Shown here: positions 5,609-40,462 of the stretch, piece after piece | Layout of the letters: each line of letters opens with the position of its first letter | How positions within the stretch are numbered: the first letter of the stretch is position 1 | Source of the DNA: Squalus acanthias | Taxonomy: Eukaryota | Assembly (NCBI GenBank): GCA_030390025.1 | Contig: CM059431.1 | Span: forward strand, 131,256,001 to 131,320,000 | Reading direction: 5' to 3' | Length of the DNA stretch: 64,000 nucleotides | Program-made: the position numbers and the translations under genes | Notes under the pieces: generated by a model | The model's database searches: none | Told to the model about the DNA's origin: nothing | Seen by the model: the letters and a program-made list of their open reading frames with translations, nothing else

Positions 5609-8515
5609 TCAAGCTATCACACTCCCTGTCACTCTGGTGTGCTCCATGTGCTTATCCAATAACCGCTTGAAAGTTCCTAAAGTGTCCGACTCCACTATCA
5701 CAGCAGGCAGTCCATTCCACACCCCAACCACTCTCTGAGTAAAGAATCTACCTCGGACATCCCTTCTATATCTCCCCCCATGCACCTTATAGCTATGCCC
5801 CCTTGTAACAGCTGCCTCTACCCGAGGAAATAGTCTCTGAACATCCACTCTATCTATCCCCCTCATCATCTTATAAACCTCTATTAAGTCGCCTCTCATC
5901 CTCCTCCGCTCTAAAGAGAAAAGCCCCAACTCCCTCAATCTTTCCTCATAAGACCTCCCCCCCAAACCAGGCAGCATCCTGGTAAATCTCCTTTGCACTC
6001 TTTCCAATGCTTCCACGTCCTTCCTATAGTGAGGTGACCAGAACTGCACACAATATTCCAAATGTGGTCTCACCAAGGTCCTGTACAGTTGCAGCATAAC
6101 CTCACGGTTCTTAAACTCAAACCCTCTGTTAATAAACGCCAACACACCATAGGCCTTCTTTACTGCTCTATCCACTTGAGTGGCAACCTTCAGAGATCTG
6201 TGGATATGAACCCCCAGATCCCTCTGCTCCTCCACGTTCCTCAGAACCCTGCCGTTGACCCTGTAATCCTTATTCACATTTGCCCTACCAAAATGAATCA
6301 CCTCGCACTTATCAGGGTTAAATTCCATCTGCCATTTTTCGGCCCAGCTCTGCATCCTATCAATGTCTCTTTGCAGCCTACAACTGCCCTCCACCTCATC
6401 CACTACTCCACCAATCTTGGTGTCATCAGCAAATTTACTGATCCACCCTTCAGTCCCCTCCTCCAAGTCATTGATAAAAATCACAAACAGCAGAGGACCC
6501 AGCACCGACCCCTGTGGCACACCGCTGGTAACTGGTCTCCAGTCCGAAAATGTTCCATCCACCACCACCCTCTGCCTTCTATGAGATAGCCAGTTACTTA
6601 TCCAATCGGCCAAATTTCCCTCTATCCCACAACTCCTTACTTTCTTCATGAGACGACCATGGGGAACCTTATCAAACGCCTTACTAAAATCCATGTATAC
6701 GACATCAACCGCTCTACCTTCATCCACACACTTAGTTACCTCCTCAAAGAATTCAATCAAATTTGTTAGGCAAGACTTACCCTTCACGAATCCGTGTTGA
6801 CTATCCCTGATTAAGTTGCCCCTTTCCAAATGGTCATAAATCCTATCCCTCAGGACCTTTTCCATTATCTTACCAACCACCGAAGTAAGACTAACCGGCT
6901 TATAATTACCAGGGTCATTCCTATTTCCTTTCTTGAAGAGAGGAACAACATTCGCCACTCTCCAGTCCTCTGGCACCATCCCCGTGGACAGTGAGGACAC
7001 AAAGATCAAAGCCAGAGGCTCTGCAATCTCCTCCCTTGCCTCCCAAAGAATCCTAGGATATATCCCATCTGGCCCAGGGGACTTATCGACCCTCAGGTTC
7101 TTCAAAATTGCTAAAACATCTTCCCTCAGAACATCTACCACCTCCAGCCTATCCACCTTTATCACACTCTCATCCTCAAGAACATGGCCCCTCTCCTCGG
7201 TGAACACTGACGAAAAGTATTCATTCATCACCTCTCCTATCTCTTCTGACTCCATGCACAAGTTCCCACTACTGTCCTTGACCGGCCCTACCCTCACCCT
7301 GGTCATTCTTTTATTTCTCACATAAGAGTAAAAAGCCTTGGGGTTTTTCTTGATCCGACCCGCCAAGGACTTCTCATGCCCCCTCCTAGCTCTCCTAAGC
7401 TCTTTTTTTAGCTCATTCCTTGCTACCTTGTACCCCTCAATCGACCCAACTGAACCTTGTTTTCTCATCCTTACATACGCTTCCTTTTTCCTCTTGACTA
7501 GACATTCAACCTCTTTTGTGAACCATGGTTCTCTCACTCGGCCATTTCCTCCCTGCCTGACAGGGACATACCTATCAAGGACACGCAGTAATTGCTCCAT
7601 GAAAAAGCTGCACTTTTCGTTTGTGCCTTTCCCTGATAGTTTCTGTTCCCATCTTATACTCCCTAATTCTTGCCTAATCGCATCATAATTACCCCTCCCC
7701 CAATTATAAACCCTGCCCTGCCGTATGGCCCTATCCCTCTCCATTGCAATAGTGAAAGTTACCGAATTGTGGTCACTATCTCCAAAGTGCTCTCCCACAT
7801 ACAAATCAAACACTTGGCCCGGTTCATTACCCAGTACCAAATCCAACGTGGCCCCACCTCTTGTCGGCCTATCCACATATTGTGTCAGGAAACCCTCCTG
7901 CACACACTGTGCAAAAACTATCCCATCCGAACTGTTTGACCTATAAAGGTTCCAATCAATATTTGGAAAGTTGAAGTCACCCATGACAACTAATCTGTGA
8001 CCTCCACACCTATTCATAATCTGCTTTGCAATTTCTTCCTCCACATCTTTATTACTATTTGGGGGCCTGTAGAAAACTCCTAACAACGTGACCGCTCCTT
8101 TCCTATTTCTAACTTCAGCCCATATTACCTCAGACGGCAGATCCCCCTCGAACTGCCTTTCTGCCGCTGTTAAACTATCCTTGATTAACAATGCTACTCC
8201 TCCACCTTTCTTACCAACTTCCCTACTCTTACTGAAACATCTATACCCCGGAACTTCCAACAACCATTCCTGTCCCTGTTCTAACCATGTCTCCGTAATG
8301 GCCACCACATCGTAGTCCCAAGTACCAATCCACGCTCCAAGTTCTCCTACCTTATTCCGGATGCTCCTTGCATTGAAGTAGACACACTTCAAGCCATCTT
8401 CCTGTCTGCCGGTACATTCCTGCGACCTTGATACCCTCCTCAGTACCTCCCTACACTCACCACTGGCTCGTGGACTACAGCCCTTTTTCCCATCCCCCTG
8501 ACAAATTAGTTTAAA
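5609..8515 (-). CDS. CR1 ORF2: APE endonuclease plus reverse transcriptase, uninterrupted
   Basis: Endonuclease motifs YFNARS, AITETW, FYRPP, MGDFN, SDHN. RT motifs [21 protein letters not shown]. The track start at 8626 is a TTG and the first in-frame ATG is at 8017. Confidence 0.93.
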   Translation of the reverse strand, partial: FKLICQGDGKKGCSPRASGECREVLRRVSRSQECTGRQEDGLKCVYFNARSIRNKVGELGAWIGTWDYDVVAITETWLEQGQEWLLEVPGYRCFSKSREVGKKGGGVALLIKDSLTAAERQFEGDLPSEVIWAEVRNRKGAVTLLGVFYRPPNSNKDVEEEIAKQIMNRCGGHRLVVMGDFNFPNIDWNLYRSNSSDGIVFAQCVQEGFLTQYVDRPTRGGATLDLVLGNEPGQVFDLYVGEHFGDSDHNSVTFTIAMERDRAIRQGRVYNWGRGNYDAIRQELGSIRWEQKLSGKGTNEKCSFFMEQLLRVLDRYVPVRQGGNGRVREPWFTKEVECLVKRKKEAYVRMRKQGSVGSIEGYKVARNELKKELRRARRGHEKSLAGRIKKNPKAFYSYVRNKRMTRVRVGPVKDSSGNLCMESEEIGEVMNEYFSSVFTEERGHVLEDESVIKVDRLEVVDVLREDVLAILKNLRVDKSPGPDGIYPRILWEAREEIAEPLALIFVSSLSTGMVPEDWRVANVVPLFKKGNRNDPGNYKPVSLTSVVGKIMEKVLRDRIYDHLERGNLIRDSQHGFVKGKSCLTNLIEFFEEVTKCVDEGRAVDVVYMDFSKAFDKVPHGRLMKKVRSCGIEGNLADWISNWLSHRRQRVVVDGTFSDWRPVTSGVPQGSVLGPLLFVIFINDLEEGTEGWISKFADDTKIGGVVDEVEGSCRLQRDIDRMQSWAEKWQMEFNPDKCEVIHFGRANVNKDYRVNGRVLRNVEEQRDLGVHIHRSLKVATQVDRAVKKAYGVLAFINRGFEFKNREVMLQLYRTLVRPHLEYCVQFWSPHYRKDVEALERVQRRFTRMLPGLGGRSYEERLRELGLFSLERRRMRGDLIEVYKMMRGIDRVDVQRLFPRVEAAVTRGHSYKVHGGRYRRDVRGRFFTQRVVGVWNGLPAVIVESDTLGTFKRLLDKHMEHTRVTGSVIA

Positions 8516-9431
8516 CCCCCCCGAAGAGCCGTAGCAAATTTCCCTCCCAGGATATTGGTGCCCCTCTGGTTCAGGTGCAAACCGTCCTGTTTGTACAGGT
8601 CCCACCTTCCCCAGAATGTGCTCCAATTATCCACATAACTGAAACCCTCCCCCCTACACCATCCCTGCAGCCACGTGTTTATCTGCACTCTCTCCCTGTT
8701 CCTCAGTTCGCTAGCACGTGGCACCGGCAACAAACCAGAAATTACAACATGGTTTGTACTGGCTCTCAGCTTCCAACCTAGCTCCCTAAATTCCTGTTTT
8801 AAATCCCCGTCCCTTCTCCTACCTATGTCGTTGGTACCGATGTGTACCACGACTTGTGATTGTTCCCCTTCCCCTTTGAGGATTCTGAAAACACGGTCCG
8901 AGACGTCACGGACCCTGGCACCCGGGAGGCAACATACCATCCGTGAGTCTCTTTTGCTGCCACAGAACCTCCTATCTGTCCCTCTGACTATTGAGTCCCC
9001 AATAACTATTGCTCTCCTGCTCTCCCCCCTTCCCTTCTGAGCCACAGGGACGGACCCAGCGCCGGAGATCCGGTCACCGTGGCTTACCACTGGTAAGTTG
9101 TCCCCTCAACAGTATTCAAAGCGGTATACCTGTTACTGAGGGGAACGACCACAGAGGATCCCTGCACTGACTGCTTCCTCCTAGCCCCTCTCACCGTCAC
9201 CCATCTATCTTCATGCTTTGGAGTAATTACATCCCTGAAGCTTCTATCTATGACCTCCTCTGCCTCCCGAATGATCCGAAGTTCATCCAGCTCCAGCTCC
9301 AGTTCCCTAACACGGTTTTCGAGGAGCTGGAGATGGGTGCACTTCCCACAGGTGTAATCAGCAGGGACACCTACGGCGTCCCTCACCTCAAACATTCTGC
9401 AGGAGGAACATTTCACTGCCTCCCCTGCCAT
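8506..9431 (-). pseudogene. CR1 ORF1 (zinc knuckle, leucine zipper, SGNH/GDSL esterase) with one frameshift near 9102-9105
   Basis: 9084..9431 has CSSC...CGKC and LENRVRELELELDEL. 8506..9090 has IGDSIVR, HIGTND, DGLHLN. One extra G in the G run would join the two frames. Confidence 0.88.
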
Positions 9432-9627: not shown

Positions 9628-9889
9628 GCCTCTGTGGGCCTACCTGATCGCCGCCGCCTCTTAAGTCCTCCGCCTCGCCGCAGCCGCTCCACCCAGGTCC
9701 GCCGCCTCTGTGGGCCTACTTGGTCGCCGCCGCCTCTTAAGTCCTCCGCCTCGCCGCAGCCGCTCCACCCAGGTCCGCCGCCTCTGTGGGCCTACCTGGT
9801 CGCCGCCGCCTCTTAAGTCCTCCGCCTCGCCGCAGCCGCTCCACCCAGGTCCGCCGCCTCTGTGGGCCTACCTGGTCGCCGCCGCCTCT
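9628..9889 (-). repeat. About 3.4 tandem copies of a 76-bp GC-rich monomer at the CR1 5' end
   Basis: The unit gcctctgtgggcctacctggtcgccgccgcctcttaagtcctccgcctcgccgcagccgctccacccaggtccgcc repeats with a 76-bp period. Confidence 0.92.
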
Positions 9890-10111
9890 TCCTTAGGGTT
9901 TTTTTTCTGAGTTTTGGGGGGATCTGTGAAATCTGCGAATTTTGAGAATCTTGCATAATTCAACCCATGGTCTTTCATTAGGATGAGCTCCAGTTCTGAA
10001 AAAAATGCAATAATAAGTCTTTTGTTCTTCAACTCTATATTATTGACATGCTCCAAAAACAAAATGCATGGTTAAAAATGAGCATATCATGGAGGGTGTA
10101 ATAAATACATT

Positions 10112-12042: not shown

Positions 12043-15000
12043 GTGGCTGCACAGAGGCAGAGGGCTGCATTCAAGTTCACCGGTGACTCCCTCCATATGC
12101 TTGTGGAGGGAGTCAGAGCACACAGGGAGGTCCTCTTCCCTTCTAATGGGCGGAAGAAACCTCCCCAGGCTGCAGAGGAGGTCAACAGCAGGGATGTGGT
12201 CAGGAGGACCTGGGTGCAGTACCGGAAACGTTTCAATGATCACATTAGATCAGGAAAGGTGAGTACAAAGCCACACTCAACTTCATCCTGCTGTGCCTCT
12301 CATCACATCCCCATCACTCTGCCATCCCAACCCTACTCCTGCACATCATTACTCACACCAACATACCTTGCATGCCCACCCATCCCTCTCTCTCTATCTA
12401 CATCGAATTGGAAAACCGCAAATGTAACACCCCTATTTAAGAAAGGAGGGAGACAGAAAGCAGGAAACTATAGACCAGTTAGCCTAACATCTGTCATTGG
12501 GAAAATGCTGGAGTCCTTCATTAAGGAATCAGTAGCAGGGCCTTTGGAAAATCATAATGCAGTCAAGCAGAGTCAGCATGGTTTTATGAAAGGGAAATCA
12601 TGTTTAACAAACTTGCTGGAGTTCTTTGAGGATGTAACAAGCAGGGTGGACAAAGGTGAACCAGTGGATGTGGTGTATTTGAATTTCCAGAAGGCATTCG
12701 ATAAGGTGCCACATAAAAGGTTACTGCATAAGATAAGAGCTCACAGAGTTGGGGGTAATATATTAGCATGGATAGAGAATTGGCTAACTAACAGAAAGCA
12801 GAGAGCCAGGATAAATGGGTCATTTTCCGGTTGGCAAACGGTAACTAGTGGGGTGCCACAAGGATCGGTGCTGGGGCCTCAACTATTTACAATCTACATT
12901 AATGACTTGGATGAAGGGACCGAGTGTAATGTAGCCAAGTTTGCGGATGATACAAAGATGGGTGGGAAAGCAAGTTGTGCAGAGGACTCAAAGAATCTGC
13001 AAAGGGATATAGACAGGCTAAGTGAGTGGGCAAACATTTGGCAGATGGAGTATAATGTGGGAAAGTGCGAGGTTATCCACATTGGCAAGAAAAATAAAAA
13101 AGCAAATTATTATTTAAATGGAGAGAGATTACAAAATGCTACAGTTCAGAGGGATCTGGGGGTCCTTGTGCATGAAACACAAAAAGTTAGCATGCAGGTA
13201 CAGCAAGTAATCAAAAAGGCAAATGGAATGTTGGCCTTTATTGTAAGGGGGTTGGAGTATAAAAGCAGGGAAGTCCTGCTACAACTGTACAGGATATTGG
13301 TGAGACCACACCTTGAGTACTGCGTACAGTTTTGGTCTCCTTATTTAAGGAAGGATATACTTGCGTTGGAGGCAGTTCAGAGACGATTCACTAGGTTAAT
13401 TCCAGAGATGAGGGGGTTGACTTATGAAGAAAGGTTGAGCAGGTTGGGCCTATACTCATTGGAATTTAGAAGAATGAGAGGTGGTCTTATTGAAACATAT
13501 AAGATACTGAGGGGGCTCGACCAGGTAGATGCAGAGAGGATGTTTCCCCTCGTGGGGAAATCTAGAACTCGGGGGCATAGTTTCAGAATAAAGGGTCGCC
13601 CTTTTAGAACTGAGACGAGGAGGAATTTCTTCTCTCAGAGGGTTGTAAATCTGTGGAATTCTCTGCCCCAGAGAGCCATAGAGGCTGGGTCATTAAATAC
13701 ATTTAAGGTGGAGATAGACAGATTTTTGCACGATAAGGGAGTCAAGGGTTATGGGGAGCAGGCAGGGAAGTGGCTTTGAGCCCAAGATCAGCCATGATCT
13801 TATTGAATGGCGGAGCAGGCTCGAGGGGCCAACTGGCCTATTCCTGCTCCCATTTCTTATGTTCTTATTTCTTATGTTCTAACCTTATCACATCCCCATC
13901 TTACTAGCCACCGCTCACACTCACCCTCATCCTAATGCAATCATACCAACTAACAACACACAAGCAGGCCACTTGGCATTGCCACCCCATTCCATCATAG
14001 TCTCCCTCTAAAGATGTAACCCATCCAATCCCTACACTCATTCCATCACGCTCACTCAACCTTCTCTGCTTTCCCTCCTTGCAGGAGAACAGAGCTCACA
14101 ATAAGAGGGAGAGAAAGAGAACTGGAGGTGGGCCTCCATCATTAGGCACCCTCACAACAGCAGAGGAGGCTGTGTTGGAAGTATCGGGAATGGCCAAGCA
14201 GCTGGAGGTGGGAGACGGAGAGAGGGGGACATCTCAGCAACCTGGTGACAGAATTACATATCATACATCAGACACTCATGTGGACACTGATGTCATCAGC
14301 CACTGAATGGTCATCATGTGCATAATGGTATCTGTACCCATTCTTTATTTGACATATCTAACTCATCTCTTCAGTCTCCTGAGGGTGCCCCGTCACCAGA
14401 CATGAGCACACCCAGCACCAGTGCAGATACGCACACCTCGGTGGGTCCCACGCGAGATAGAGTAGTGTTGTCACCGGGTCCGTCACAAATCACAAGTGAG
14501 CAAGAGCAGATGGTGGAGACAGGGACAGCAGAGGAGACTCCTCGCCGGAGGGTGCAGGAGTCTCCCAGCTCTACTCAGCTGCATGCAGACGCTGAGCCTC
14601 GGGGGTCATCCAGAAAGAGGGCGATCCTGGAGGTGCAGGAAGAAGTGCAGGGGGCTCTGGCAGGTTTTACAAATGTGCAGAGAATGGAAGAGTCCATCTC
14701 CAACATGAGCACCACTGTGTCGCAGGCGATGGTGACTGTAGGCTCTTCCATGGAAAGGATGGCCACCTGCATGGAGCAGCTAATGCGCCACTCACAGGAG
14801 CACATGGTCTCTATGGAGAATAGATGGCTATCTATGAAGCATAGATGGCAGAGGCTCATAGACCTCCCGTCTAGGAGGGATGTCAGTGTAGAAATGGGTC
14901 CTCATGGCCCCACTGATGTGCAGCAGCCGAGTCTGTCCCTGCACAATCACAGGAGGAGCAGACTTTGGCGGGGCCATCACAGGCTCCAAAGCCCAGAGGA

Positions 15001-15123
15001 CATTCGCCAAGAGTGTCTAAGCAGTGGCAGCAGGGAAGTGAGCAAGCTGCCTCTACCTCTGCTGAAGCTACAGGGGTAGCACCTCGTAGAAGCACACGTA
15101 AGAGAAAGATGACACACAAGTAG
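12043..15123 (+). pseudogene. Harbinger Myb/SANT-like DNA-binding protein gene, spliced (exons about 12043-12258, 14085-14244, about 14375-15123)
   Basis: FTGDSLHMLVEGVRAHREVLF...RTWVQYRKRFND, donor AAG|gtgagt at 12259, acceptor ttgcag| at 14084, then ENRAHNKRERKRTGGGPP in frame. Start codon is GTG and the exon 3 phase is inconsistent, indicating decay. Confidence 0.8.
12406..13880 (+). mobile_element. 5'-truncated CR1 LINE with open RT frame, inserted in intron 1 of the Harbinger Myb gene
   Basis: NWKTANVTPLFKKG...[10 protein letters not shown]...FADD through to the stop at 13779. Tail tcttatgttctta. Confidence 0.93.
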
Positions 15124-15419
15124 ATCCACAAGGGTAGCCACTTGGGTGTTTTAGTCACTGTTAATGTCAAGTTTCCGTTAATGTATTGTCTACCATTAAA
15201 ATCTTTATTTTCACCAGTTTCCCATCGTGGACACATTTGTGCGCACCTTTGGAAGTAGCTTTATGAGCTGCAATGAATGGTGAGACATAACATTACCTCC
15301 AGCAATGGTGATCCATGTGAAAGGAATGGCTTGGTCATTGTAGGGATGTTTTATGGTGTGGCTGTGGTGTGGTGCCTACCTGGTGCAGCATGTGCCAGCC
15401 ATATGGGTGTACTGCGTAA

Positions 15420-16676
15420 AGTTCAGTAAATCTGGCTATGATGAGGCCATCCCAGGCTTCCCAGGCAGCAATGTGCTTGGGTGCTGGTGGGATCTGGACT
15501 GCAGTTTCCTCCAGCTCCTGCTCCTCCTCGTCTTCCAGCTGATGCTCCTCCTCCTCTTCCTGCTCCTCCTCTGAAGAAGAAGCTGTGCACTCAGTGCCTT
15601 GCTCCTCATGCAGCACTAATCTTCGCTGCTGTGCTATGTTGTACAGGGCGCAGCAAACCATGACGATTCTGGAGACCATGGCTGGTGCGTACTGAGGGGC
15701 TCCTCCAGATATGTCAAGGCATCTGAAGCGCATTTTGAGCATGCCTATTGTCTGCTCTATTACACATCTGGTGGAAATTTGGCTTTCAATATATCTCTCC
15801 TGGGCCTCAGTACTTGGCCTCCTAAAGGGTGTCATGAGTCACATCTTCAGTGGGATAGCCCTTGTCTCCAAGCAGCCACCTGGAAAGTCTGTTTGGAGGA
15901 GCGAAGAGCTGAGGGAGGCTGGACTGGCGCAGGATGAAAGAGTCATGACAGCTGCCAGGAAATTTTGCGCACACGTGCATGATGATCTTCCTATGGTTGC
16001 AGACCAGCTGCACATTGAAGGAGTGGAAGCCCTTACGGTTCACAAAGACTCCTGGGTGATGATGGGGTGCCCTGATGGCCACATGTGTGCAGTCGATGAC
16101 GCCCTGAACCCGTGGGAAGCCAGCCAGTGTGGCAAAACCAAGCACCCGCTCAGTAACACTGGCTTCATCAGTGGCAAAGTTGATATAATTGGCCGACTTG
16201 TAAAATGGGGCATCAATGACCTGTGTGATGCATCTGTGGGTGGCCAACTGTGAGATGCCGCAAATGTCTGCTGCAGATCCCTGGAAGGAGCCTGAGGCGA
16301 AGAAGTTGAAGAGGCTGGTGACTTTGACAGCCACTGGTAAGGTGTGTCCACCCACTCCTCTGGGCTGCAGGTCTTGCTCTAGCAATCTGCAAATGACTGC
16401 GATGACCTGGCATGACATCCTGACCCTCCTTTGGCACTGCTGCTCAGTCATGTTGAGGAAGCTCATCCTCTGCCTATATATCCTGTGTTGGGGGTATCTC
16501 CTCCGGCGCGGTGCAGCCCTGCGCTGATGCCCTCTGTCCTGTGAAGCATCAGGTGGTTGAGGAGAAGGTTGGTGGTGTTGTTGTTGGAGCTGCTGGTGTG
16601 CCTGGTGCTGCTGGTGTTGGGGCCCATTGTGGTCCGATTCTGAGGACCAAGGTAAGACAGTATAAATGGCACCCAT
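15420..16676 (-). pseudogene. Harbinger (HARBI1-like) DDE transposase, frameshifted near 15830-15860
   Basis: [46 protein letters not shown] and IEQTIGMLKMRFRCL across ORFs 15822..16676 and 15335..15835. Confidence 0.92.
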
Positions 16677-17592
16677 GCTGATGAAATAGATGGCAGGTCA
16701 AGTAGAGATCAGAGGAGCAAGCTGTCAACGGTGTGATAGGTTGTAACAATGAAGTGAGAATGGATGGCGACTTGCTGGAAGCACTTGCAGCCTGTAGAAA
16801 GCTAAATGTGTGCTGGGAATGCAGTCAGCAACAGCTTCTGCCTGAGGAAAGTGACCAGCTGTGAGGTTGGAGCTTTTATAGTACATTTGATGTTGTCATT
16901 TAATCAGCTGGAGCAATGGCCACTCAACTCTCGCCTCAGGCTGACAGACGTGGTTCCCGAGCTGCATGAATCCCATTGGCAGCCGGGGAAATTCGAAAGG
17001 TAAGCTGACAAACGCTCTTAAGGGTCTGATCTGTTAACGATTTGAATTAGGTCTCCCGCCTCTGCCGGTCGGGTCGCTGCCACACCAGCAAATGTGCCCG
17101 AGGGAAAGGCGCATGGGGGCGGGATGATGGCAAGTTCCTGACCCGCTGCAACTTATTTCAAATTTCCCACCCAACCCACCTCCAATCGCGCTCACACGGA
17201 CCCCAGAAAATTATGGCCTAGGTAAATAACTCCAACTTGCTACATCTTATATACCACTTGCTGTGTAACCCAGACTTTAAAAACGGTAAGAGATAGAAAT
17301 TAAGTACAAAAAAGAATGTATAATAAATAATCAAGGTCACTCATCTATAGTTTTCATGGAAAAGTGGACAGAGCTGCCCAATTGAACTTCAACACAATGG
17401 TAAAAATCCCAGAATACTATGTAATAAAAACAGAATTTGACTTATTTCGTCACCATAAAATCAATGACCCTGATTATAACATTGTGCATTACATGGCATG
17501 AAACCCCTATTATAAAACAGTGTTTCCTCCTTCTGTGAACAGTACTAGAAGAGTTCCATTATATACATCAATCTAAATATCTAACATAAGTC

Positions 17593-18460: not shown

Positions 18461-19784
18461 GCTATTGCGATGTTGCTTCTAAGTTATAAGAACCCTTGAA
18501 TGGCGCAAAAGAAAGAGGAAATTATGGAGTAAGTGATTTACGTCATTAATTATGCCACTCCATATTTTCCTGGGACCTTTGCGACTCTCGTCTGTTGCCT
18601 TCACCGAAAACCATTAGAATATAATCATCATAGCTCCGCCCCTATTCAAATCAATGGTGATCGTGATTTACCTGCATTTAAGCCAGTTTTCATACTGCAG
18701 CCAATTAGGCTTAAAAATAATAGTGCTGGTGGCCTGGCAGCAGAGTGATTTATTGCTCCAAGATCGAGTTTAATCTCCCAGTTGTTAAAAATGTATTACC
18801 TTTGCAAAGATTAAACAACCAGGATCTTTGAGTATCCACTTTCCGCACCTGGGATTTTGAATTTTAATATTGCAAAACTATATGTCTGGAGCAAATTCAA
18901 TTTATGAGATAATTTTCTGAATTTAAATGACCCTTTCTGTTTTCCACAGTGCTCAACCGCACTAAAGCCACCAACACAACAAACATACCTTTTAATATAA
19001 ATCGAATTTGCTTATTAATCACTATTGGTTCAATAAGTTATGAATAAATTGATATAAACGTATCTCAAAATCATTTCAAGCCCATCTATTCCGAAAATAG
19101 TCAGCATGTCATTATGTAAATTCATGCCTTCCATAAGGATTTGCGAAATTCAGTCTCATTCAAACAGAAATAATTATCAGTTTACAATATGTTAAATCAC
19201 AAGATTAGTTTGCTTAGCTCATTTTATGTCCTCATAATCCACAAAAAATAAAAGCTAATAACTATTTTATTCCAAATAATTAATAATTTATAATGTAACA
19301 ACTTGGAGTGGCCTAAATTCACAGATCACACACTACAGTGAAACTGACAAGAATCTCAAAACTTGAAAAGTGACACGACATCTTAAGATGATGGTAGATT
19401 AAAGTTTATTAAAGAAGTTACACTTCCATTCACATAAGCTCTCCCGAGGCTTCGCACAGTGAAGGTATCATTACTCCAGCTCTGAGATCGGCACCGTGTG
19501 CCTAATTCACTGAGTACCCCGCTCTGAAGAGGCGGATCCGTAATTTTAATATTTAAATGAGTCTCCTGTCCTCAGATTTTGGGAGCCATTTGAATTTAAC
19601 GGCTGTGAGCTGGGATTCCCAGGGATCGGGAAACCCAGCAGCTAAAGGGAGGCAGGAGCTGCCAGATCTAGCAGGTAAATCCTTTTCCAGCACTGCTTGT
19701 GGGCCAGAAAGAAGAGGAGTGCATCCCCCCGGCCCCTCAAGCAAATCTTCTGCCGTGATCAGCGGAACACACCTCTCCATACCC

Positions 19785-21465
19785 ACGATCTCTCCCTCCT
19801 CGCGATCTCTCCCCCACGATCTCTCCCTCCTCGCGATCTCTCCCCCACGATCTCTCCCTCCTTGCAATCTCTACCTCCTTGCGAACTCTCCCTCCTCGCG
19901 ATCTCTCCCTCTCCGTGCTCTCTCCCTCCCGTGCTCTCTCCCTCCTCGTGATCGCTCCCTCCTCGCGATCTCTCCCTCCCTGTGCTCTCTCCCTCCCGTG
20001 CTCTCTCCCTCCTCGTGATCGCTCCCTCCTCGCGATCTCTCCCTCCTCGCGATCTCTCCCTCCCCGTGCTCTCTCCCTCCCTGTGCTCTCTCCCTCCTCG
20101 CGATCTCTCCCCCAAGATCTCTCCTCCATGGTCACTCCCCCACAATCTCTTCCTGTGAACTCTCCTCCTCGCGATCTCTCCTCGCGTGATCTCTCCCCTC
20201 GCGATCTCTCCCTCCCTGCGATCTCTCCCCCCGTGAACTCTTCCTCCCCGCGATCTCTCCCTCAAGCAGAGTGCCGAGCTGATCAATCGCGGGCAGGAAT
20301 CCGTGAAAAAAAGTGGAACAAGAAAGGTAAGTTTTTTTTTACTTACCTCGGCCACCTCGCCTTTAATCATCGCCCCTGAAGCGGCTGGCCGCCTGATGCA
20401 CGCCTCCTGCAGCTGTCGGTGTTTTCGACCGGCGCTACTGCAGGGGGCGGAAGTCAATTTCGGGTCCGGGGGAGCGCTACCGGGACAATGCGCATGGCGA
20501 TGATGTTACAAACTCTGGGCGAAGGAGATCGGGGCGCAACGCCGTAGCACCTCCGCAAAACTCCCGCTGAATATGACGGGAGTCGATGCCAGCATCGCGC
20601 CCAGTCGCAAAGCCATTTGCGATCTCTCCCCCCTGCAATCTCTCCCCCACGATCTTTCCCTCCCTGCGATCTTTTGATCTCTCCCCTCTGCGATCTCTCC
20701 CCTTGTGATCTCTCCCCTCGCGATCTCTCCCCTCGTGATCTCTCCCCCCGCAATCTCTTCCCTCGCATTCTATCACCCACAATCTTTCACCCCTGCATTC
20801 TCTTCCCCCACGATCTCTCCACCCGCCTTCTCTCCCCCCACATTCTGTTCCCCCCGACAATTTCTCCCTCCCCGTGATCTCTCTACCTGTCATCTCTCCC
20901 CACGATCTCTCCACCCGTGATCTTTCCCTCCTTGATCTCTCCCCCCGCGATCTTTCCCTTTGTGATCTCTGCCCTTGCGATCTCTCTCCTCGTGATCTCT
21001 CCCCTGCGATCTCTCCCCCCGCGATCTTTCCCTCCTTGATCTCCCCACGCTGCGATCTCTCGCACCACGATCTCTCCCCCCTGCGATCTCTCCCCCCGCG
21101 ATCTTTCCCTCCTTGATCTCCCCACGCTGCGATCTCTCGCACCACGATCTCTCCCCCCTGCGATCTCTCCCCTTGCGATCTCTGCCCTTGCGATCTCTCC
21201 CCTCATGATCTCTCCACCCGCCTTCTCTCCCCCCACGTTCTGTCCCCCAACAATCGCTCCCTCCCCATGATCTCTCTGTCATCTCTCCCCCACGATCTCT
21301 CCCTCCCATGATTTCTCTCCCTGCGATCTCTCTCTCCTTATCTCTCCCCCCATGATCTCTCACTCCCTTCGATCTCTCCCCGCGTGATCTCTCCCTCCCT
21401 GCGATCTCTCCCCCCACGATCTCTCACTCCCTGTGATCTCTCACTCCCTTCGATCTCTCCCCGCA
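19785..21465. repeat. Degenerate minisatellite based on (GC)GATCTCTCCC, with a MITE-like piece at about 20265-20620
   Basis: Dozens of gatctctccc units. They account for the many overlapping R/G/E-rich and S/P-rich ORFs. Confidence 0.9.
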
Positions 21466-24367
21466 CAGAGCAGCGAACCTGGTTGGGAACAAAGAGGAGA
21501 GAGAAAAAAAGAAAAAAATCCAGGAGTGACATCACAGGATAGCTGGTAACTGATTAGTTGGTAAAGGTCACATCGCTTTTTTTTGCTCTTCAAGTTAGGG
21601 GCCAGGGTTAAATAGCTGGCTGGAATTCAGCAGAAACTTGGAGATTAGTAACAGTTAATACTATATTAAATTAGTAACTGTTATATTATATTAATAACTT
21701 GAATCAGATACATCTTAGTCTTAAGTTTCTGTAAGTTAGTTAATAGCCTCTTAAATAGAGGCATGGCAGGGCAGCTCAGTCCCGTGGAATGCACATCCTG
21801 TGCCGTGTAGGAAATCCAGGTTGCTTCCCATGTCCTGGACAACCACATGTGCAGGGGGTGTCGTTGGCTGGAGGAGCTTGAGCTCTGGGTTTCGGAGCTT
21901 GAGCAGCAGCTGGCTTCACTGCCAGCTGTGAGGCTGAGAGCTTCGTGGATAGCACGTTTCAGGAGGTGGTCACCCTGCAGATAAAGGGTGTGCAGGCAGA
22001 AAAGGAATGGGTGAATGCCAGACAGAAAAGGAGGACCAGGCAGGTAGTGCAGGAGTCCCCTGAGTGCATCTTGCTCTCCAACCAGTATTGGGTTCTGAGT
22101 ACTGGTGAGGGTGATGGTTCCTCTGAGGAGTACAGTCAGAGCCAAGTCCGTGGCACCATGGGTGGCTCAGCTGTACAGGAAGAAGAGTAGGAGAGCAATA
22201 GTGGTAGGGGATTCAATAGTTAGGGGAGCAGACAGGCATTTCTGCGGCCGCAGATATGACTCCAGGATGGTATGTTGCCTCCCTGGTGCCAGGGTCAAGG
22301 ATGTCACCGAGTGGCTGCAGAACCTTCTGAGGGGGGAGGGTGAACAGTCAGAGGTCGTGGTCCATATTGGTACCAGCGACATAGGTAGAAAGAGGGATGA
22401 GGTCCTGCAGGCAGATTTTAGGGAGCTAGGAAAGAGATTAAAAAGCAGGACCTCAAAGGTAGTAATCTCCGGATTACCCCCGGTGCCACGCGCAAGTGAA
22501 TATAGAAATAGAAGGATAGAGCAGATGAATGCGTGGCTGGAGAGATGGTGCAGGAGGGAGGGCTTCAGATTCCTGGGGCATTGGGACTGGTTCTGGGGGA
22601 GGTGGGACCTGTAAAGGCCGGACGGGTTGCACCTCAACAGGGCCGGAACCAATATCCTCGTGGGGAAGTTTGCTGGTGCTGTTGGGGAGGGCTTAAACTA
22701 ATTTGGCAGGGGTATGAGCACCAGGACGTAACATTAGCAAGGAGATGGGAATATGATGCTGTGACAATAACTGAGACCTGGCTCAAAAAAGGGCAGGATT
22801 GGGTATTAAATATTCCTTGTTATAAGGTGTTCAGGAAAGAAAGGGAAGGAAAGATAGGAGGTGGTGAGGCAGTATTGGTTAAGGAGAGTGTTACAGTGCT
22901 GGAGAGGGAGGATGTCCTGGAGGGGCCAAGGACAGAATCTATATGGCTAGAGTTAAGAAATAATAGAGGTGCCATTACACTACTAGGTGTATTCTATAGA
23001 CCACCAAATAGTGGGGAAGATATGGTGGAGCAAATTTGCAGAGAAATTACAGAGAGGTGCAGGAACTATAGAGTAGTAATAATGGGGGACTTCAACTATC
23101 CTAATATAGACTGGGATAGTAATAGTGTAAAGGGCCGAGAAGGAGAAGAATTTCTAAAGTGCGTTCAGGAGAACTTTCTTGATCAGTACGTTTCCAGCCC
23201 AACGAGCGAGGAGGCATTGCTGGATCTGGTTCTGGTAGTTCAAGTGGAGCAAGTGTCAGTAGGTGAACATTTAGGGGACAGTGATCCTAATATCATAAGG
23301 TTTAGATTAGCTATGGAAAAGGACAGGGAGCAATCTAGAGTAAGAATGTTTAACTGGGGGAAGGCCAATTTCAGTGGGATGAGAACGGATCTGGCCCGGG
23401 TAAACTGGAATCAAAGATTGGCAGGCAAAACTGTAGTGGGCTGCCTTTAAAGAGGAAATAGTTCGGATACAGACGAGGTACATTCCAATGAGGGGGAAAG
23501 GTCGGGCAACTAAAGAAGAGCTCCCTGGATGATGAAACAGATAGCCAATATAATGAAGCAAATAAAGAGCGCGTATGACAGATGTCAGGTTGCAAATACA
23601 TCTGAGAATCAGGCTATATATAGAAAAGTCAGAGGAGAAGTGAAAAAGAAAATAAGAGGGGCAAAGAGAAGGTATGAGAATAGAATGGCTTCTATAGGCA
23701 TATAAATAGTAAATGGGTAGTAAGAGGAGGGGTGGGGCTGATTAGGGACCAAAAAGGAGACCTATGCATGAAGGCAGAGGGTATGGCTGAGGTACTAAAT
23801 GAATACTTTGCATCTGTCTTCACCAAGGAAGAGGATGTTGACATAGACATAGTGAAGGAGGAGGTAGTGGAGACATTTGATAGTATAAAAATTGATAAAG
23901 AGGTATTAGAAAGGCTGGCTGTACTTAAAGTAGATAAATAACCAGGACCAGATAGGATGCATCCTAGGATGCTGAGGGAATTGTGGGCAGAAATCGTGGA
24001 AGTATTGGCCATAACATTCTAATCCTCCATAGATACGGGGGTGGTGCAAGAGGACTGGAGAATTGCAAATGTTATACCATTGTTCAAAAAAGAGTGTAAA
24101 GATAAACTCAGCAACTAAAGGCCAGTCAGTTTAGCCTTGGTAGTGGGGAAGCTTTTAGAAACAGTAAACAGGGACAAAATTAACAGTCACTTGGATAGGT
24201 GTGGATTAATTAAGGAAAGCCAGCATGGATTTGTTAAAGGCAAATCGTGTTTAACCAATTTGATCGAGTTTTTTGATGAGGTACCAGAGAGGGTTGATGA
24301 GGGTAATGCGGTTGACATAGTGTCCATGGATTTCCAAAAGGCGTTTGACAAAGTACCACATAATAGG

Positions 24368-24584
24368 ATAGCAAAATACTGCAGATGCTGGAAATCCGAA
24401 ATAACAACAGAAAACGCTGGAAAAACTCAGCAGGCCAGGCAGCATCCGTGGAGAGAGAAAGAGAGTTGACGTTTCAGGTCGATGACCTTTCATCAGAACT
24501 GGGAAGACCTGAAACGTCAACTCTCTTTCTCTCTCCACGGATGCTGCCTGGCCTGCTGAGTTTTTCCAGCGTTTTCTGTTGTTA
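24368..24584. mobile_element. Penelope-like pseudo-LTR insertion in inverted (hairpin) arrangement
   Basis: Homologous to the Penelope end at 38856-38990. Perfect 80-bp inverted repeat (24401-24480 vs 24506-24585) and 14-bp TSD taccacataatagg. Confidence 0.88.
24464..24500 (-). ncRNA. Minimal type I hammerhead ribozyme motif
   Basis: The minus strand reads agtt-CTGATGA-a-aggtc-atc-gacct-GAAA-c-GTC-aact: stem I agtt/aact, stem II aggtc/gacct, palindromic ACGT in place of stem III. Confidence 0.7.
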
Positions 24585-25620
24585 TACCACATAATAGGCT
24601 CACAAAGTACAGTGGTGCTCCCCAGAGGTCGGTTCTAGGACCACTGCTTTTCTTGATATATATTAATGACTTGGACATGGGTGTACAGGGCACAATTGCA
24701 AAATTTGCAGATGACACAACACTTGGAAGTATAGTGAACAGTGAGGAGGAGAGTGATAGACTTCAGGAAGACATAAACAGGCTGGTGAAATGGGCGGACA
24801 CGTGGCAGATAAAATTTAACGCAGGAAAGTGTGAAGTGATATATCTTGGTAGAAAGAATGAGGAGAGGACATATAAACTAAATGGTACAATCCTAACGGG
24901 GGTGCAAGAACAGAGAGAACTGGGGGTATATGTGCACAAATCATTGAAGGTGGCAGGGCAAGTTGAGAAAGCAGTTAAAAAGGCTTATGGGATCCTGGGC
25001 TTCATAAATAGAGGTATAGAGTATAAAAGTGTGGAAATTATGATGAACCTGTATAAAACACTGGTTCGGCCCCAACTGGAGTACTGTGTCCAATTCTGGG
25101 CACCACACTTTAGGAAGGATGTGAAGGCCTTAGAGAGGGTGCAAAAAAGATTTACGAGAATGATTCCAGGAATGAGGGACTTCAGTTACGTTGATAGACT
25201 GGAGAAGCTGGGGTTGTTCTCCTTGGAACAGAGAAGATTGAGAGAAGATTTGATAGAGGTGTTCAAAATTATGAGGGGTCTGGACAGAGTAGATAGAGAG
25301 AAACTGTTCCCATTGGCAGAAGGTTCAAGAACCAGAGGGCACAGATTTAAGGTGATTGGCAAAAGAACCAAAGGCGACATAAGAAAAACAAAATTTACGC
25401 AGCAAGTAGTTAAGATCTGGAATGTACTTCCTGAAAGGGTGGTGGAGGCAGACTCAATCCTATCTTTCAAAAGGGAGTTGGATAAGTGTCTGAAGGAAAA
25501 ATATTTGCAGGGCTACGGGGAAAGGGCAGGTGAGTGGGACTAGCTGAGGGTCGGCATGGGCTCGACGGGCCGAATGGCCGTCTTCCGTGCTGTAATCATT
25601 CTATGATTCTATGTTTCTAT

Positions 25621-38498: not shown

Positions 38499-40462
38499 GG
38501 CCCGTATTTTGCAGCCCCTACGGGTGCGTACGAGGTGTGCACACGCCCATAAGGGCCGTGCAAGTTCCAGGTTTAGGCATGCGACGCGCATGCGTGAAAA
38601 CCTGGAACTTGCAATCTGTCAAGAATCTTCTTGACAGATCCAATGCATCCCCAGGAAAAGGGCATCCGCGGGCGGTGAGTTGGCCTATTTGCCCAACTTC
38701 TGCCCAGCAAATGCCTGTGAAATTCTTATGCCTGGTAAAAGCAAGCGTAAGGCCTGCTTCTATCAGTGTAAGAGTTTAAATGAACATAAAAAAATATTTT
38801 TTTCACTCATTTATACATTAAAAAACCTGTACAATAAGGTAAGTTTATTTTTAGGATAGCAAAATACTGCGGATGCTGGAAATCCGAAATAACAACAGAA
38901 AACGCTGGAAAAACTCAGCAGGCCAGGCAGCATCCATGGAGAGAGAAACAGAGTTAACGGTTCAGGTCGAAGACCTTTCGTCAGAACTGGAAAAAAGCAG
39001 GAAATGAAATAGATTTTAAAGCAAGTATAATGCTGGGAAAAGGGGGAGGGGATTAAAGAACAAAAGGGAAGGTCAGTGATAGGATAGAAAGCAGGAGAGA
39101 TTAAGAGACATTAAGAGATATTCAAGGCAAGAGGAGGTGGAAATGGGACAGGTTGAGGAACAAAGGATGGCTCTAGATGAAGTGTGAATTGCGCTGGCAG
39201 AAGGAAGGACAGCTGCCATGTGGGAGGGAAGAAAAAAGGCCAAACAAAAGTGTGGATAAAATTAAAATAAAAATATATATATATGTGATAGGGGTTATGA
39301 TCTGAAATTGTTGAACTCTATGTTGAGTCCAGAGGGCAGTAGAGTGCCTAATCGAAAGATGAGGTGCTGTTCCTCGAGCTTACGCTGAGCTTGCGTGGAA
39401 CAATGCAAGAGGCCGAGGACGGTGAGGTCTGAGTGGGAATGGAGCGGTGAATTAAAGTGACGGAGCTCGGGGTCCCCCTTATGGACTAAACAGGAGGTGT
39501 TCCGCAAAGCGGTCACCCAATCTGCGTTTGGTCTCCCCAATGTAGAGGAGACCACATCGTGAGCAGCGAATACAGTATACTAAATTGCAGGAAGTACAAG
39601 TAAATCGCTGTTTCCCCTGGAAGGAGTGTTTGGGGCCCTGGACAGTGGGAAGGGGGGAGGTATAAGGGCATGTGTTGCATCTCCTGCGCTTGCACGGGAA
39701 GGTGCCGGGCGAAGGGGAAGGGGTGCTGGGGGTGGTAGAGGAGTGGACTAGGGTGTCGCGGAGGGAGCGGTCCCTGCGGAATGCTGAAAGGGGAGGTGAA
39801 GGGGAAGATGCGTTTGGTGGTAGGATCACGCTGGAGGTGGCGGAAATGGCGGAGGATGATCCGTTGAATGTGGAGGCTGGTGGGGTGAAAGGTGAGGACA
39901 AGGGGAACTCTATCGTGGTTCTGGGAGGGAGGGGCAGGGGTGAGGGCAGAAGTGCGGGAGATAGAACGGACACGGTCGAGGGCCGTGTCAACTACAGCAG
40001 AGGGGAATCCTCGGTTGAGGAAAAAGGAAGACATATCGGACATAATTTTAGCCCTTTTAAAACATTTAAATTTATTTTTCAAAAAATGTAATTTTTGTTT
40101 TAATTATTTAATTAAATGGCATTTTAATTCATTTTAAATATGTAATTTTTTTTATTTATTTGATGTGTAGATGTATTTTTTGGGGTATTCCCATTCATGC
40201 TTATGGGGTTTCTGTACATACGGAACCTCCATAAGCATGAATGGGGATTCCCTTCTTTCATTCATTGGGCCGGCCCACGTGATCCCAGGGGCGCTCGTGA
40301 ACCACCTGCGCCCCTGGGATACGTGGGCCTCTCCCCGCAGGTACCCGGAGAGGCCCAGGACCTGCGAGTCTCCGTACCTCCCGGACCACCCGGTACGCGG
40401 GCATTTTATTTGCAGATCGGAGGCATTTCCTGTGGGAAGCCTCCGACCGCAAATTCAGGGCC
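38499..40462. mobile_element. Family A MITE (inverted relative to 10112-10879) carrying a Penelope insertion
   Basis: ggcccgtattttg...caaattcagggcc with TSD ATA/ATA. Both arms align with 10112-10879. Confidence 0.85.
38856..40040 (-). mobile_element. 5'-truncated Penelope-like retroelement with GIY-YIG endonuclease and 3' pseudo-LTR
   Basis: FTCTSCNLVYCIRCSRCGLLYIGETKRRLGDRFAEHL, RKLEEQHLIFRLGTLLPSGLNIEF and RVPLVLTFHP across frameshifted ORFs. Hammerhead-like motif at 38952-38988 with GAAA changed to GAAC. Confidence 0.92.

What the first reader, a model, noticed from the sequence alone, without database searches (positions are those of the whole stretch)
8440..8530. Canonical -1 slippery site U_UUA_AAC joins CR1 ORF1 to an ATG-less ORF2
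Seen: on the minus strand ORF1 ends GGT TTA AAC TAA, so the heptamer TTTAAAC (8515-8509) is phased X_XXY_YYZ directly before the stop. ORF2 is open in the -1 frame through it (TTT AAA CTA ATT). The first ORF2 ATG (8017) lies 166 codons later, after the endonuclease motifs NARS, TETW and YRPP. Established: U_UUA_AAC is the coronavirus-type slippery sequence, whereas L1-type LINEs use reinitiation for ORF2. Inference: this CR1 makes a gag-pol-like ORF1-ORF2 fusion (esterase-endonuclease-RT) by programmed frameshifting. The downstream sequence is G-rich (GGGGGATGGGAAAAAGGG), but I cannot confirm a stimulator structure or whether this has been reported before.
Basis: partly seen in the sequence, partly recalled or inferred. 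Interest (0 to 1): 0.75.

Follow-up and report, generated by a model that had tools for sequence, protein, structure and literature searches.

The report
Ancient ribosome slip site in LINEs
A common vertebrate jumping gene (CR1 LINE) ends its first gene with the same seven-letter 'slippery' sequence from sharks to land vertebrates, so its enzyme gene is probably made when ribosomes slip back one base, as in retroviruses, but this has not been tested in the lab.

Summary
Observation confirmed: TTTAAAC (8515-8509) is in X_XXY_YYZ phase before the ORF1 stop. ORF2 is open in the -1 frame, and its first ATG (8017) would lose about 130 endonuclease residues. One correction: this copy's ORF1 is broken near 9105, so the claim applies to the family. 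The site is conserved as RNA. In 14 junctions (37-84% identical), Leu-Asn is TTA-AAC in 14 of 14, while other conserved Leu/Asn columns reach at most 67%. ORF2 is in the -1 frame in 10 of 10 testable loci, and a G tract follows about 10 nt downstream. Sister ORF1 lineages end in GN or KN, which fit other slippery heptamers; one DNA locus shows U_UUU_UUA. Against: no hairpin or pseudoknot was found, 5 of 10 loci have an in-frame ATG 1-2 codons after the site, and there is no experiment. Best reading: programmed -1 frameshifting to an ORF1-ORF2 fusion (0.78). Ten paper searches found no CR1 report, but key older papers were unavailable. This scan reported the same idea earlier on another piece of this genome.

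The parts
9628..9890 (-). 5' UTR, 3.5 copies of a 76-bp GC-rich tandem unit
9105..9431 (-). ORF1 5' half: ATG 9431, Cys-x2-Cys finger-like motif and coiled-coil-like segment; frame broken by a net one-base loss near 9105 in this copy
8506..9105 (-). ORF1 3' half: SGNH/GDSL esterase ending Leu-Asn-stop
   Evidence: PF13472 E 1e-13; PDB 4c1b ORF1 esterase E 2.5e-29
8509..8515 (-). Slippery heptamer U_UUA_AAC in ORF1 phase
8506..8508 (-). ORF1 stop TAA directly 3' of the heptamer
   Evidence: a stop lies here in 13 of 14 junctions
8489..8498 (-). Conserved unstructured G tract (GGGGG-AT-GGG), 10 nt after the heptamer; candidate stimulator. It also holds an out-of-frame ATG at 8493
8381..8509 (-). 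Frame-preserving linker at the start of the -1 frame, 43 codons, no ATG
5609..8515 (-). ORF2 in the -1 frame: APE endonuclease and reverse transcriptase, uninterrupted; 966 codons after the shift; first ATG at 8017
   Evidence: PF03372 and PF00078
5524..5608 (-). 3' UTR with a short hairpin and a 7-bp terminal microsatellite (3.3 copies)
   Evidence: (hairpin in MFE and centroid, z only -0.7)
22692..22701 (+). Junction of a second, decayed CR1 subfamily (68-72% identical): C_TTA_AAC plus TAA, same phase, then a shortened G tract

Best explanation
The element is an esterase-type CR1 LINE whose ORF2 is reached by programmed -1 ribosomal frameshifting. Ribosomes start at the ORF1 ATG, and most stop at the codon right after U_UUA_AAC, making ORF1p (about 308 aa). 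A minority slip back one base on the heptamer and continue through a variable linker into the endonuclease and RT, making an ORF1-ORF2 fusion of about 1,270 aa, like Gag-Pol. The stimulator is probably not a local hairpin or pseudoknot. The candidates are the linear G tract 10 nt downstream (bound by a protein, or a G-quadruplex) and the adjacent stop codon. Shown here: sequence, phase, frame, nucleotide-level conservation. Inferred: slippage, the fusion protein, the role of the G tract.
For: (1) The terminal codons are TTA in 14 of 14 and AAC in 14 of 14 junctions, and the X position is T in 12 of 14. ORF1 nucleotide identity is 37-84%. Four other conserved Leu columns share one codon in only 36-67% of rows and a conserved Asn column in 58%; TTA is 10 of 108 Leu codons nearby. 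(2) ORF2 is in the -1 frame in 10 of 10 loci, although the linker runs from 35 to 91 codons. In several loci that frame closes 3-5 codons upstream of the heptamer end. (3) No ATG precedes endonuclease motif I in the window family or L022. A start at 8017 would lose the equivalent of L1 endonuclease residues 1-132, including E43 (alignment; the catalytic role of E43 is recalled). (4) 48 of 59 homologs with the esterase DGxH motif end in LN, including named shark, ray, frog and turtle proteins and a snake protein. The residue before LN lacks a U-ending codon (M/W/Q/E/K) in 1 of 107, against 125 of 642 at nearby positions. (5) Heptamer switching: among 50%-cluster representatives, 45 of 75 DGxHL-type tails end in a tripeptide that a slippery heptamer could encode (35 xLN, 9 QGN/SGN, 1 SKN), against a 4.2% background; 6 more carry xKN at one tail position. 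L029 shows T_TTT_TTA in phase at the DNA level. U_UUA_AAC, G_GGA_AAC and A_AAA_AAC are listed among the most shift-prone sites, and U_UUU_UUA is the HIV site (PMC5009743 passages). (6) The Gly codon of the G tract is GGG in 11 of 11. Diverged contigs align without substitutions over 8490-8519 and stop aligning just after the tract. (7) In the window the first ATG after the stop (8493) is out of frame in a strong context, which would divert scanning ribosomes.
Against: No stimulatory structure: the local fold has z +0.8; 11 of 12 junctions fold no better than shuffles; the consensus fold has 0 pairs; no shared long-range partner was found. An in-frame ATG lies 1-2 codons after the heptamer in 5 of 10 loci (L013, L015, L018, L019; UAAUG in L021) and further down the linker in 3 more; internal linker Mets also occur in P0098, P0123, P0125 and P0128. 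X is C in the second window copy and G in L005; L006 has no stop after the heptamer. One contig carries 2 extra bases just 5' of the heptamer. 2 of 14 metagenome loci that reach the ORF1 end lack the site (L016, L025). 30 of 75 DGxHL tails and 8 of 9 DGxHP tails do not end in a compatible tripeptide. The GN and KN cases are protein only. L029 ends 2 nt after its heptamer. The counts are not corrected for phylogeny. There are no translation data.
Confidence: 0.78

Rival explanations
1. Termination-reinitiation: ribosomes finish ORF1 and restart at an AUG or near-cognate codon next to the stop (SART1 UAAUG type, or L1 type). ORF2p is then a separate protein, and TTTAAAC and the G tract are conserved as a restart signal. 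This may also run alongside frameshifting in some amniote-type lineages.
For: UAAUG in L021; TAG-NN-ATG in L013, L015, L018, L019; GTG at that codon in L008 and L010; near-cognate ATT overlapping the stop in both window copies. SART1 uses UAAUG with a downstream element (PMC3894237).
Against: The codon at that place is TGT, TGG, TCG, GCG or GAA in other lineages while the heptamer stays fixed. It does not explain why the motif matches X_XXY_YYZ in phase, or why sister lineages end in GN, KN or U_UUU_UUA. Out-of-frame ATGs follow the stop in the window (8493) and in L008 and L010.
Confidence: 0.14
2. Protein constraint only: the C-terminal Leu-Asn is needed by the esterase, the slippery look is a by-product, and ORF2 starts at whichever linker ATG or near-cognate codon (CTG or TTG in the window) is available.
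For: The Leu position is also hydrophobic in DGxHP-type esterases. Scattered linker Mets occur at an ordinary rate.
Against: Synonymous positions are fixed at these two codons only. LN stays terminal while the tail length varies from 25 to 39 aa. U-ending codons are favoured one codon upstream.
Confidence: 0.03
3. ORF2 is put in frame at the RNA level, by splicing, transcriptional slippage on the G run 5' of the site, or an internal promoter.
For: The window has a run of 7 G before the heptamer, and one contig has 2 extra bases there.
Against: The G run is absent in the other lineages. The linkers are purine-rich (pyrimidines 29-49%) with weak acceptor-like sites. No recurrent joint was seen in contigs. 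RNA reads gave no test (0 reads laid).
Confidence: 0.05

Closest known systems
Dictyostelium TRE5-A / TRE3-A (APE-type non-LTR elements)
   Same: Two ORFs; ORF2 (APE + RT) is said to require a -1 frameshift (PMC5911963, figure legend passage).
   Different: Different host kingdom and ORF1 type; no esterase. I saw no shift site or stimulator described. Here a defined heptamer is conserved across vertebrate lineages.
Retroviral gag-pol and coronavirus/arterivirus ORF1a/1b -1 frameshifting
   Same: Same heptamer class and phase, with polymerase in the -1 frame and a stop soon after (PMC5009743 passages).
   Different: Those mostly use a stem-loop or pseudoknot 5-9 nt downstream; none was found here. 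The host element is a LINE with no protease domain detected.
PRRSV nsp2 and cardiovirus protein-stimulated frameshifting
   Same: A linear motif at a longer spacer (CCCANCUCC, 11 nt 3' of the site) bound by a protein complex (PMC5009743) resembles the G tract at 10 nt.
   Different: The motif here is G-rich, no binding protein is known, and the resemblance is one of layout only.
SART1 (UAAUG stop-start) and mammalian L1 ORF2 translation
   Same: Bicistronic LINE RNA with ORF2 close behind ORF1; L021 has UAAUG.
   Different: These make a separate ORF2p. SART1 read in PMC3894237; L1 reinitiation is recalled, and only the title was seen in a reference list.
Zebrafish ZfL2-1 esterase ORF1p (PDB 4c1b)
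   Same: Homologous SGNH esterase (PMC3905857 passages).
   Different: It belongs to the DGxHP class, in which 8 of 9 tails are not heptamer-compatible, so the signal appears limited to the DGxHL branch.

Membership tests
CR1-clade LINE, vertebrate esterase type | Two ORFs; ORF2 with APE endonuclease and RT | tested here: met
CR1-clade LINE, vertebrate esterase type | ORF1 with zinc-finger-like motif and SGNH esterase | tested here: met
   feature as in PMC4316615 and PMC3905857 passages
CR1-clade LINE, vertebrate esterase type | 3' UTR hairpin and terminal microsatellite (octamer in amniotes) | tested here: inconclusive
   A 7-bp repeat in 3.3 copies; the hairpin is present but z is -0.7
CR1-clade LINE, vertebrate esterase type | RT groups with reference CR1 rather than L2 in a tree | not testable with these tools
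   No curated repeat library was held
-1 programmed ribosomal frameshift signal | X_XXY_YYZ heptamer in zero-frame phase | tested here: met
-1 programmed ribosomal frameshift signal | Open -1 frame from the site into a functional ORF, offset conserved | tested here: met
   10 of 10 loci; one has a linker stop
-1 programmed ribosomal frameshift signal | Nucleotide conservation beyond amino-acid constraint | tested here: met
-1 programmed ribosomal frameshift signal (coronavirus/retrovirus type) | Stem-loop or pseudoknot 5-9 nt downstream | tested here: not met
   nested folds only, no dedicated pseudoknot program was run
-1 programmed ribosomal frameshift signal | Measured shift or trans-frame peptide | not testable with these tools
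   Needs a reporter, mass spectrometry or ribosome profiling
Stop-start reinitiation (SART1 type) | AUG overlapping or next to the ORF1 stop in the ORF2 frame | tested here: not met
   Absent in the window family; present in 5 of 10 loci overall

The most novel reading that the evidence does not exclude
The whole DGxHL-esterase branch of CR1 LINEs, from sharks to amniotes and in unnamed sister lineages, makes its reverse transcriptase only as an esterase-endonuclease-RT fusion by -1 frameshifting. [quoted passage not shown] It is stimulated by an unstructured G tract, either through a bound protein or as a natural G-quadruplex, for which the 2016 review knew no natural case. Standard CR1 ORF2 annotations would then have the wrong N-terminus.
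Probability: 0.4. Interest if true: 0.88.

Novelty: new variant of a known kind. Interest (0 to 1): 0.72.

Why it matters
How LINE ORF2 is translated is described as an open question (PMC3894237), and CR1 makes up 11.8% of the chicken genome (PMC11835228 passage). A conserved -1 frameshift would give a direct, cheap test of that question. It would show a Gag-Pol strategy in a vertebrate LINE, tie the lipid-binding esterase to the RT, and explain how ORF2p is supplied in cis at a fixed ratio. It may also reveal a frameshift stimulator without RNA secondary structure. Chicken ORF2p is quoted as about 95 kDa (PMC2734521), whereas four complete frames here give 109-115 kDa from the heptamer; the inference is that the annotated start lies too far downstream.

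Tried and rejected
No whole genome was held, so no genome-wide copy census was possible. Viral contigs: 5 scans; four gave nothing and one gave 4 weak loci (E 4e-4) that were not examined further. Plasmids: no match. GTDB: the ORF1 scan found nothing; the ORF2 scan gave 3 contigs. L026 and L028 lack the ORF1 end. L027 has an upstream ORF that did not match the esterase profile and overlaps ORF2 in the -1 frame; by eye I saw no canonical heptamer there. A 401-genome search returned only L029. A search for natural in-frame ORF1-ORF2 fusions gave 1 unrelated fusion among 8000 candidates, which is weak evidence. ORF2 protein N-termini (21 hits) were not counted, because gene callers may write M for GTG/TTG starts (recalled). 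Raw-read runs gave no test: X22 0 reads, X21 6 reads. The G-quadruplex option improved the fold in only 2 of 12 junctions, and not in the window. The tree does not resolve whether the ATG two codons after the site is ancestral in the amniote-type clade. The sigma-70 scan is irrelevant to a eukaryote.
Full report
Observation. On the minus strand ORF1 ends GGT TTA AAC TAA; TTTAAAC lies at 8515-8509 in X_XXY_YYZ phase. The -1 frame is open for 969 codons to 5609, and its first ATG is at 8017, 166 codons in. ORF1 carries a GDSL/SGNH esterase and ORF2 an APE endonuclease plus RT. The esterase matches the solved ORF1 esterase 4c1b. The closest named homologs are from sharks and rays. The element has a 76-bp tandem 5' UTR and a 7-bp terminal microsatellite. 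This copy's ORF1 has a net one-base loss near 9105 and stops early at 9086-9084, so the mechanism concerns the family and not this insertion. A single heptamer is not remarkable: 26 TTTAAAC occur in the window.

Is the first ATG usable? Aligned to the human L1 endonuclease, Met at 8017 corresponds to residue 133, so a product from it would lack the ETW glutamate that aligns with E43 (the catalytic role is recalled). Contigs of run X13 (959 laid) and a contig of X11 that spans the whole stretch show one listed substitution between 8300 and 8519 (at 8470), and it makes no ATG. Contigs drop rare variants and depth is uneven, so this speaks for the dominant family only. The first ATG after the stop, at 8493, is in the ORF1 frame in a strong context and opens 17 codons.

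DNA conservation. A metagenome scan with an ORF1 alignment gave 21 loci. Seven end before the junction and were left out. Of the 14 that reach it, 12 have NTTAAAC in ORF1 phase and 2 (L016, L025) do not. I anchored the junctions on that motif near the aligned ORF1 end. Eleven of the 12 resemble amniote CR1; this label is recalled, is supported by a snake protein with a similar tail, and the hosts are not named. With the two window copies there are 14 junctions, 37-84% identical over the upstream 293 nt. TTA is 14 of 14, AAC 14 of 14, the X position is T in 12 of 14 (C in the second window copy, G in L005), and a stop follows in 13 of 14. As a control, the other conserved Leu columns of the same alignment share one codon in 36-67% of rows and the conserved Asn column in 58%; the highest other column is a Lys at 91%. 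ORF2 lies in the -1 frame in 10 of 10 loci where an endonuclease motif is reachable, with linkers of 35-91 codons; L010 has one stop in its linker. In six loci the -1 frame closes 3-4 codons upstream of the heptamer end, which bounds the entry point. A G tract (G4-6, then usually G3-5) starts about 10 nt after the heptamer (7 nt in L005), and its Gly codon is GGG in 11 of 11. In one search two diverged X11 contigs with 21 and 18 differences align from ORF1 down to 8490; all listed substitutions fall at 8520 or above, and alignment ends just past the G tract. One of them has 2 extra bases 5' of the heptamer.

Protein evidence. Of 120 homologs, 59 have the DGxH motif and 48 of these end in LN; 60 of all 120 end in LN. 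Named hosts include sharks, rays, frogs and tortoise/turtle; Callorhinchus ends LNY. In the union (249 proteins) 107 end in LN, and the preceding residue is one with no U-ending codon in 1 of 107, against 125 of 642 at positions -9 to -4 (per-position range 6-50 of 107; not corrected for phylogeny or helix face). Among the 150 representatives, 98 have the motif. After dropping 7 long and 7 duplicate tails, 45 of 75 DGxHL tails end in a heptamer-compatible tripeptide (35 xLN, 8 QGN, 1 SGN, 1 SKN; background 4.2%), and 1 of 9 DGxHP tails does. Six more have xKN at tail position 25. The profile was built from LN-ending sequences that I chose, which favours LN hits but not GN or KN. I could not obtain DNA for the GN/KN groups, and their hosts are unnamed. 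One further locus, L029, ends its esterase with T_TTT_TTA in phase, 2 nt before the contig end. U_UUA_AAC, G_GGA_AAC and A_AAA_AAC are named among the most shift-prone sites and U_UUU_UUA is the HIV site (PMC5009743, passages). A switch between these motifs at the same place is what selection for slippage predicts, and neither protein constraint nor reinitiation predicts it.

Results against. No 3' structure was found: z +0.8 for the window; only L018 of 12 junctions folds better than shuffles; RNAalifold gives 0 pairs; no common long-range partner was found. Pseudoknots were not modelled explicitly. An in-frame ATG lies 1-2 codons after the heptamer in 5 of 10 loci, one of them as UAAUG, and further down in 3; only the window and L022 have none before motif I. 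The tree does not say whether that ATG arose once. Reinitiation may therefore operate instead of, or beside, slippage in some amniote-type lineages. RNA reads gave no test.

Mechanism. Most likely (0.78): -1 tandem slippage at U_UUA_AAC gives a minority ORF1-ORF2 fusion of about 308 + 966 residues, and other ribosomes stop at the next codon. The G tract at a 10-nt spacer recalls linear, protein-dependent stimulators at 11-15 nt, such as the PRRSV motif; G-quadruplexes stimulate shifting in synthetic constructs (PMC5009743, passages). That role is inference only. Rivals: reinitiation 0.14, RNA-level joining 0.05, protein constraint alone 0.03.

What is known. A review states that Dictyostelium TRE5-A and TRE3-A need a -1 frameshift for ORF2 (PMC5911963, passages), so frameshifting in a LINE has precedent. 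For CR1 I found no such report in ten full-text searches. Term searches inside PMC5009743 (first 300,000 of 449,034 characters; CR1 0 hits), PMC8665684, PMC4316615, PMC2734521, PMC3905857 and PMC2881922 ('frameshift' 0 hits each) also showed none. PMC4255032, PMC11835228 (first 300,000 characters), PMC5006619 and PMC13405545 mention frameshifts only in other contexts (passages). I read parts 1-2 of 3 of PMC3894237, which calls ORF2 initiation an open question and lists reinitiation, IRES and 2A. Kapitonov & Jurka 2003, Alisch 2006 and a 2020 review were not held. Haas 1997, Kajikawa 1997 and Repbase entries were not consulted. An older passing mention is therefore possible. No supplements were read; the RepBase alignments in them may bear on the spread of the site. 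The earlier scan note e1-8041403 (same genome, another piece) reaches the same reading and names TRE5-A. It is not independent support; I checked its TRE5-A lead.

Verdict. This is a real and deeply conserved feature with the signature of programmed -1 frameshifting, untested in the lab. It is a new variant of a known kind; interest 0.72.

Noticed in passing
window 21763-25543 (+): A second, decayed full-length CR1 of another subfamily. Its junction has C_TTA_AAC and a deletion just after the G tract that removes endonuclease motif I but keeps the -1 frame.
   Followed up: partly
window 9628-9890 (-): The 5' UTR is built of 3.5 copies of a 76-bp GC-rich unit at 98% identity, reminiscent of monomer-type LINE promoters (recalled).
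   Followed up: no
window 15335-16697 (-) and 14291-15079 (+): ORFs that look like a Harbinger/PIF-type transposase and a convergent partner gene; the label is from recalled motifs and was not tested.
   Followed up: no
window 39479-40103 (-): ORFs that look like the C-terminal part of a Penelope-type RT with a GIY-YIG-like tail; the label is recalled.
   Followed up: no
window 19557-21423: A long purine/pyrimidine-skewed degenerate tandem repeat that gives spurious Arg/Gly/Ser-rich ORFs.
   Followed up: no
P0007, P0056, P0124; L026-L029: CR1 ORF1/ORF2 sequences are deposited under bacterial or archaeal names (Pseudomonas, Proteus, Carnobacterium, Aeromonas, Stenotrophomonas, Nitrosocosmicus), most likely host contamination.
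   Followed up: partly
L027:1-420: A LINE with a non-esterase-matching upstream ORF that overlaps an ATG-less ORF2 start in the -1 frame; no canonical heptamer was seen by eye.
   Followed up: no
L008 and L010, junction: The ORF1 stop is followed at once by ATG-TGA in the ORF1 frame, a minimal start-stop that would trap restarting ribosomes.
   Followed up: no
P0132, P0136, P0140: ORF2 homologs with a 2A-like 'GDVHxNPG' motif, two of them also with a PHD finger, ahead of the endonuclease: another recoding route in related LINEs.
   Followed up: no
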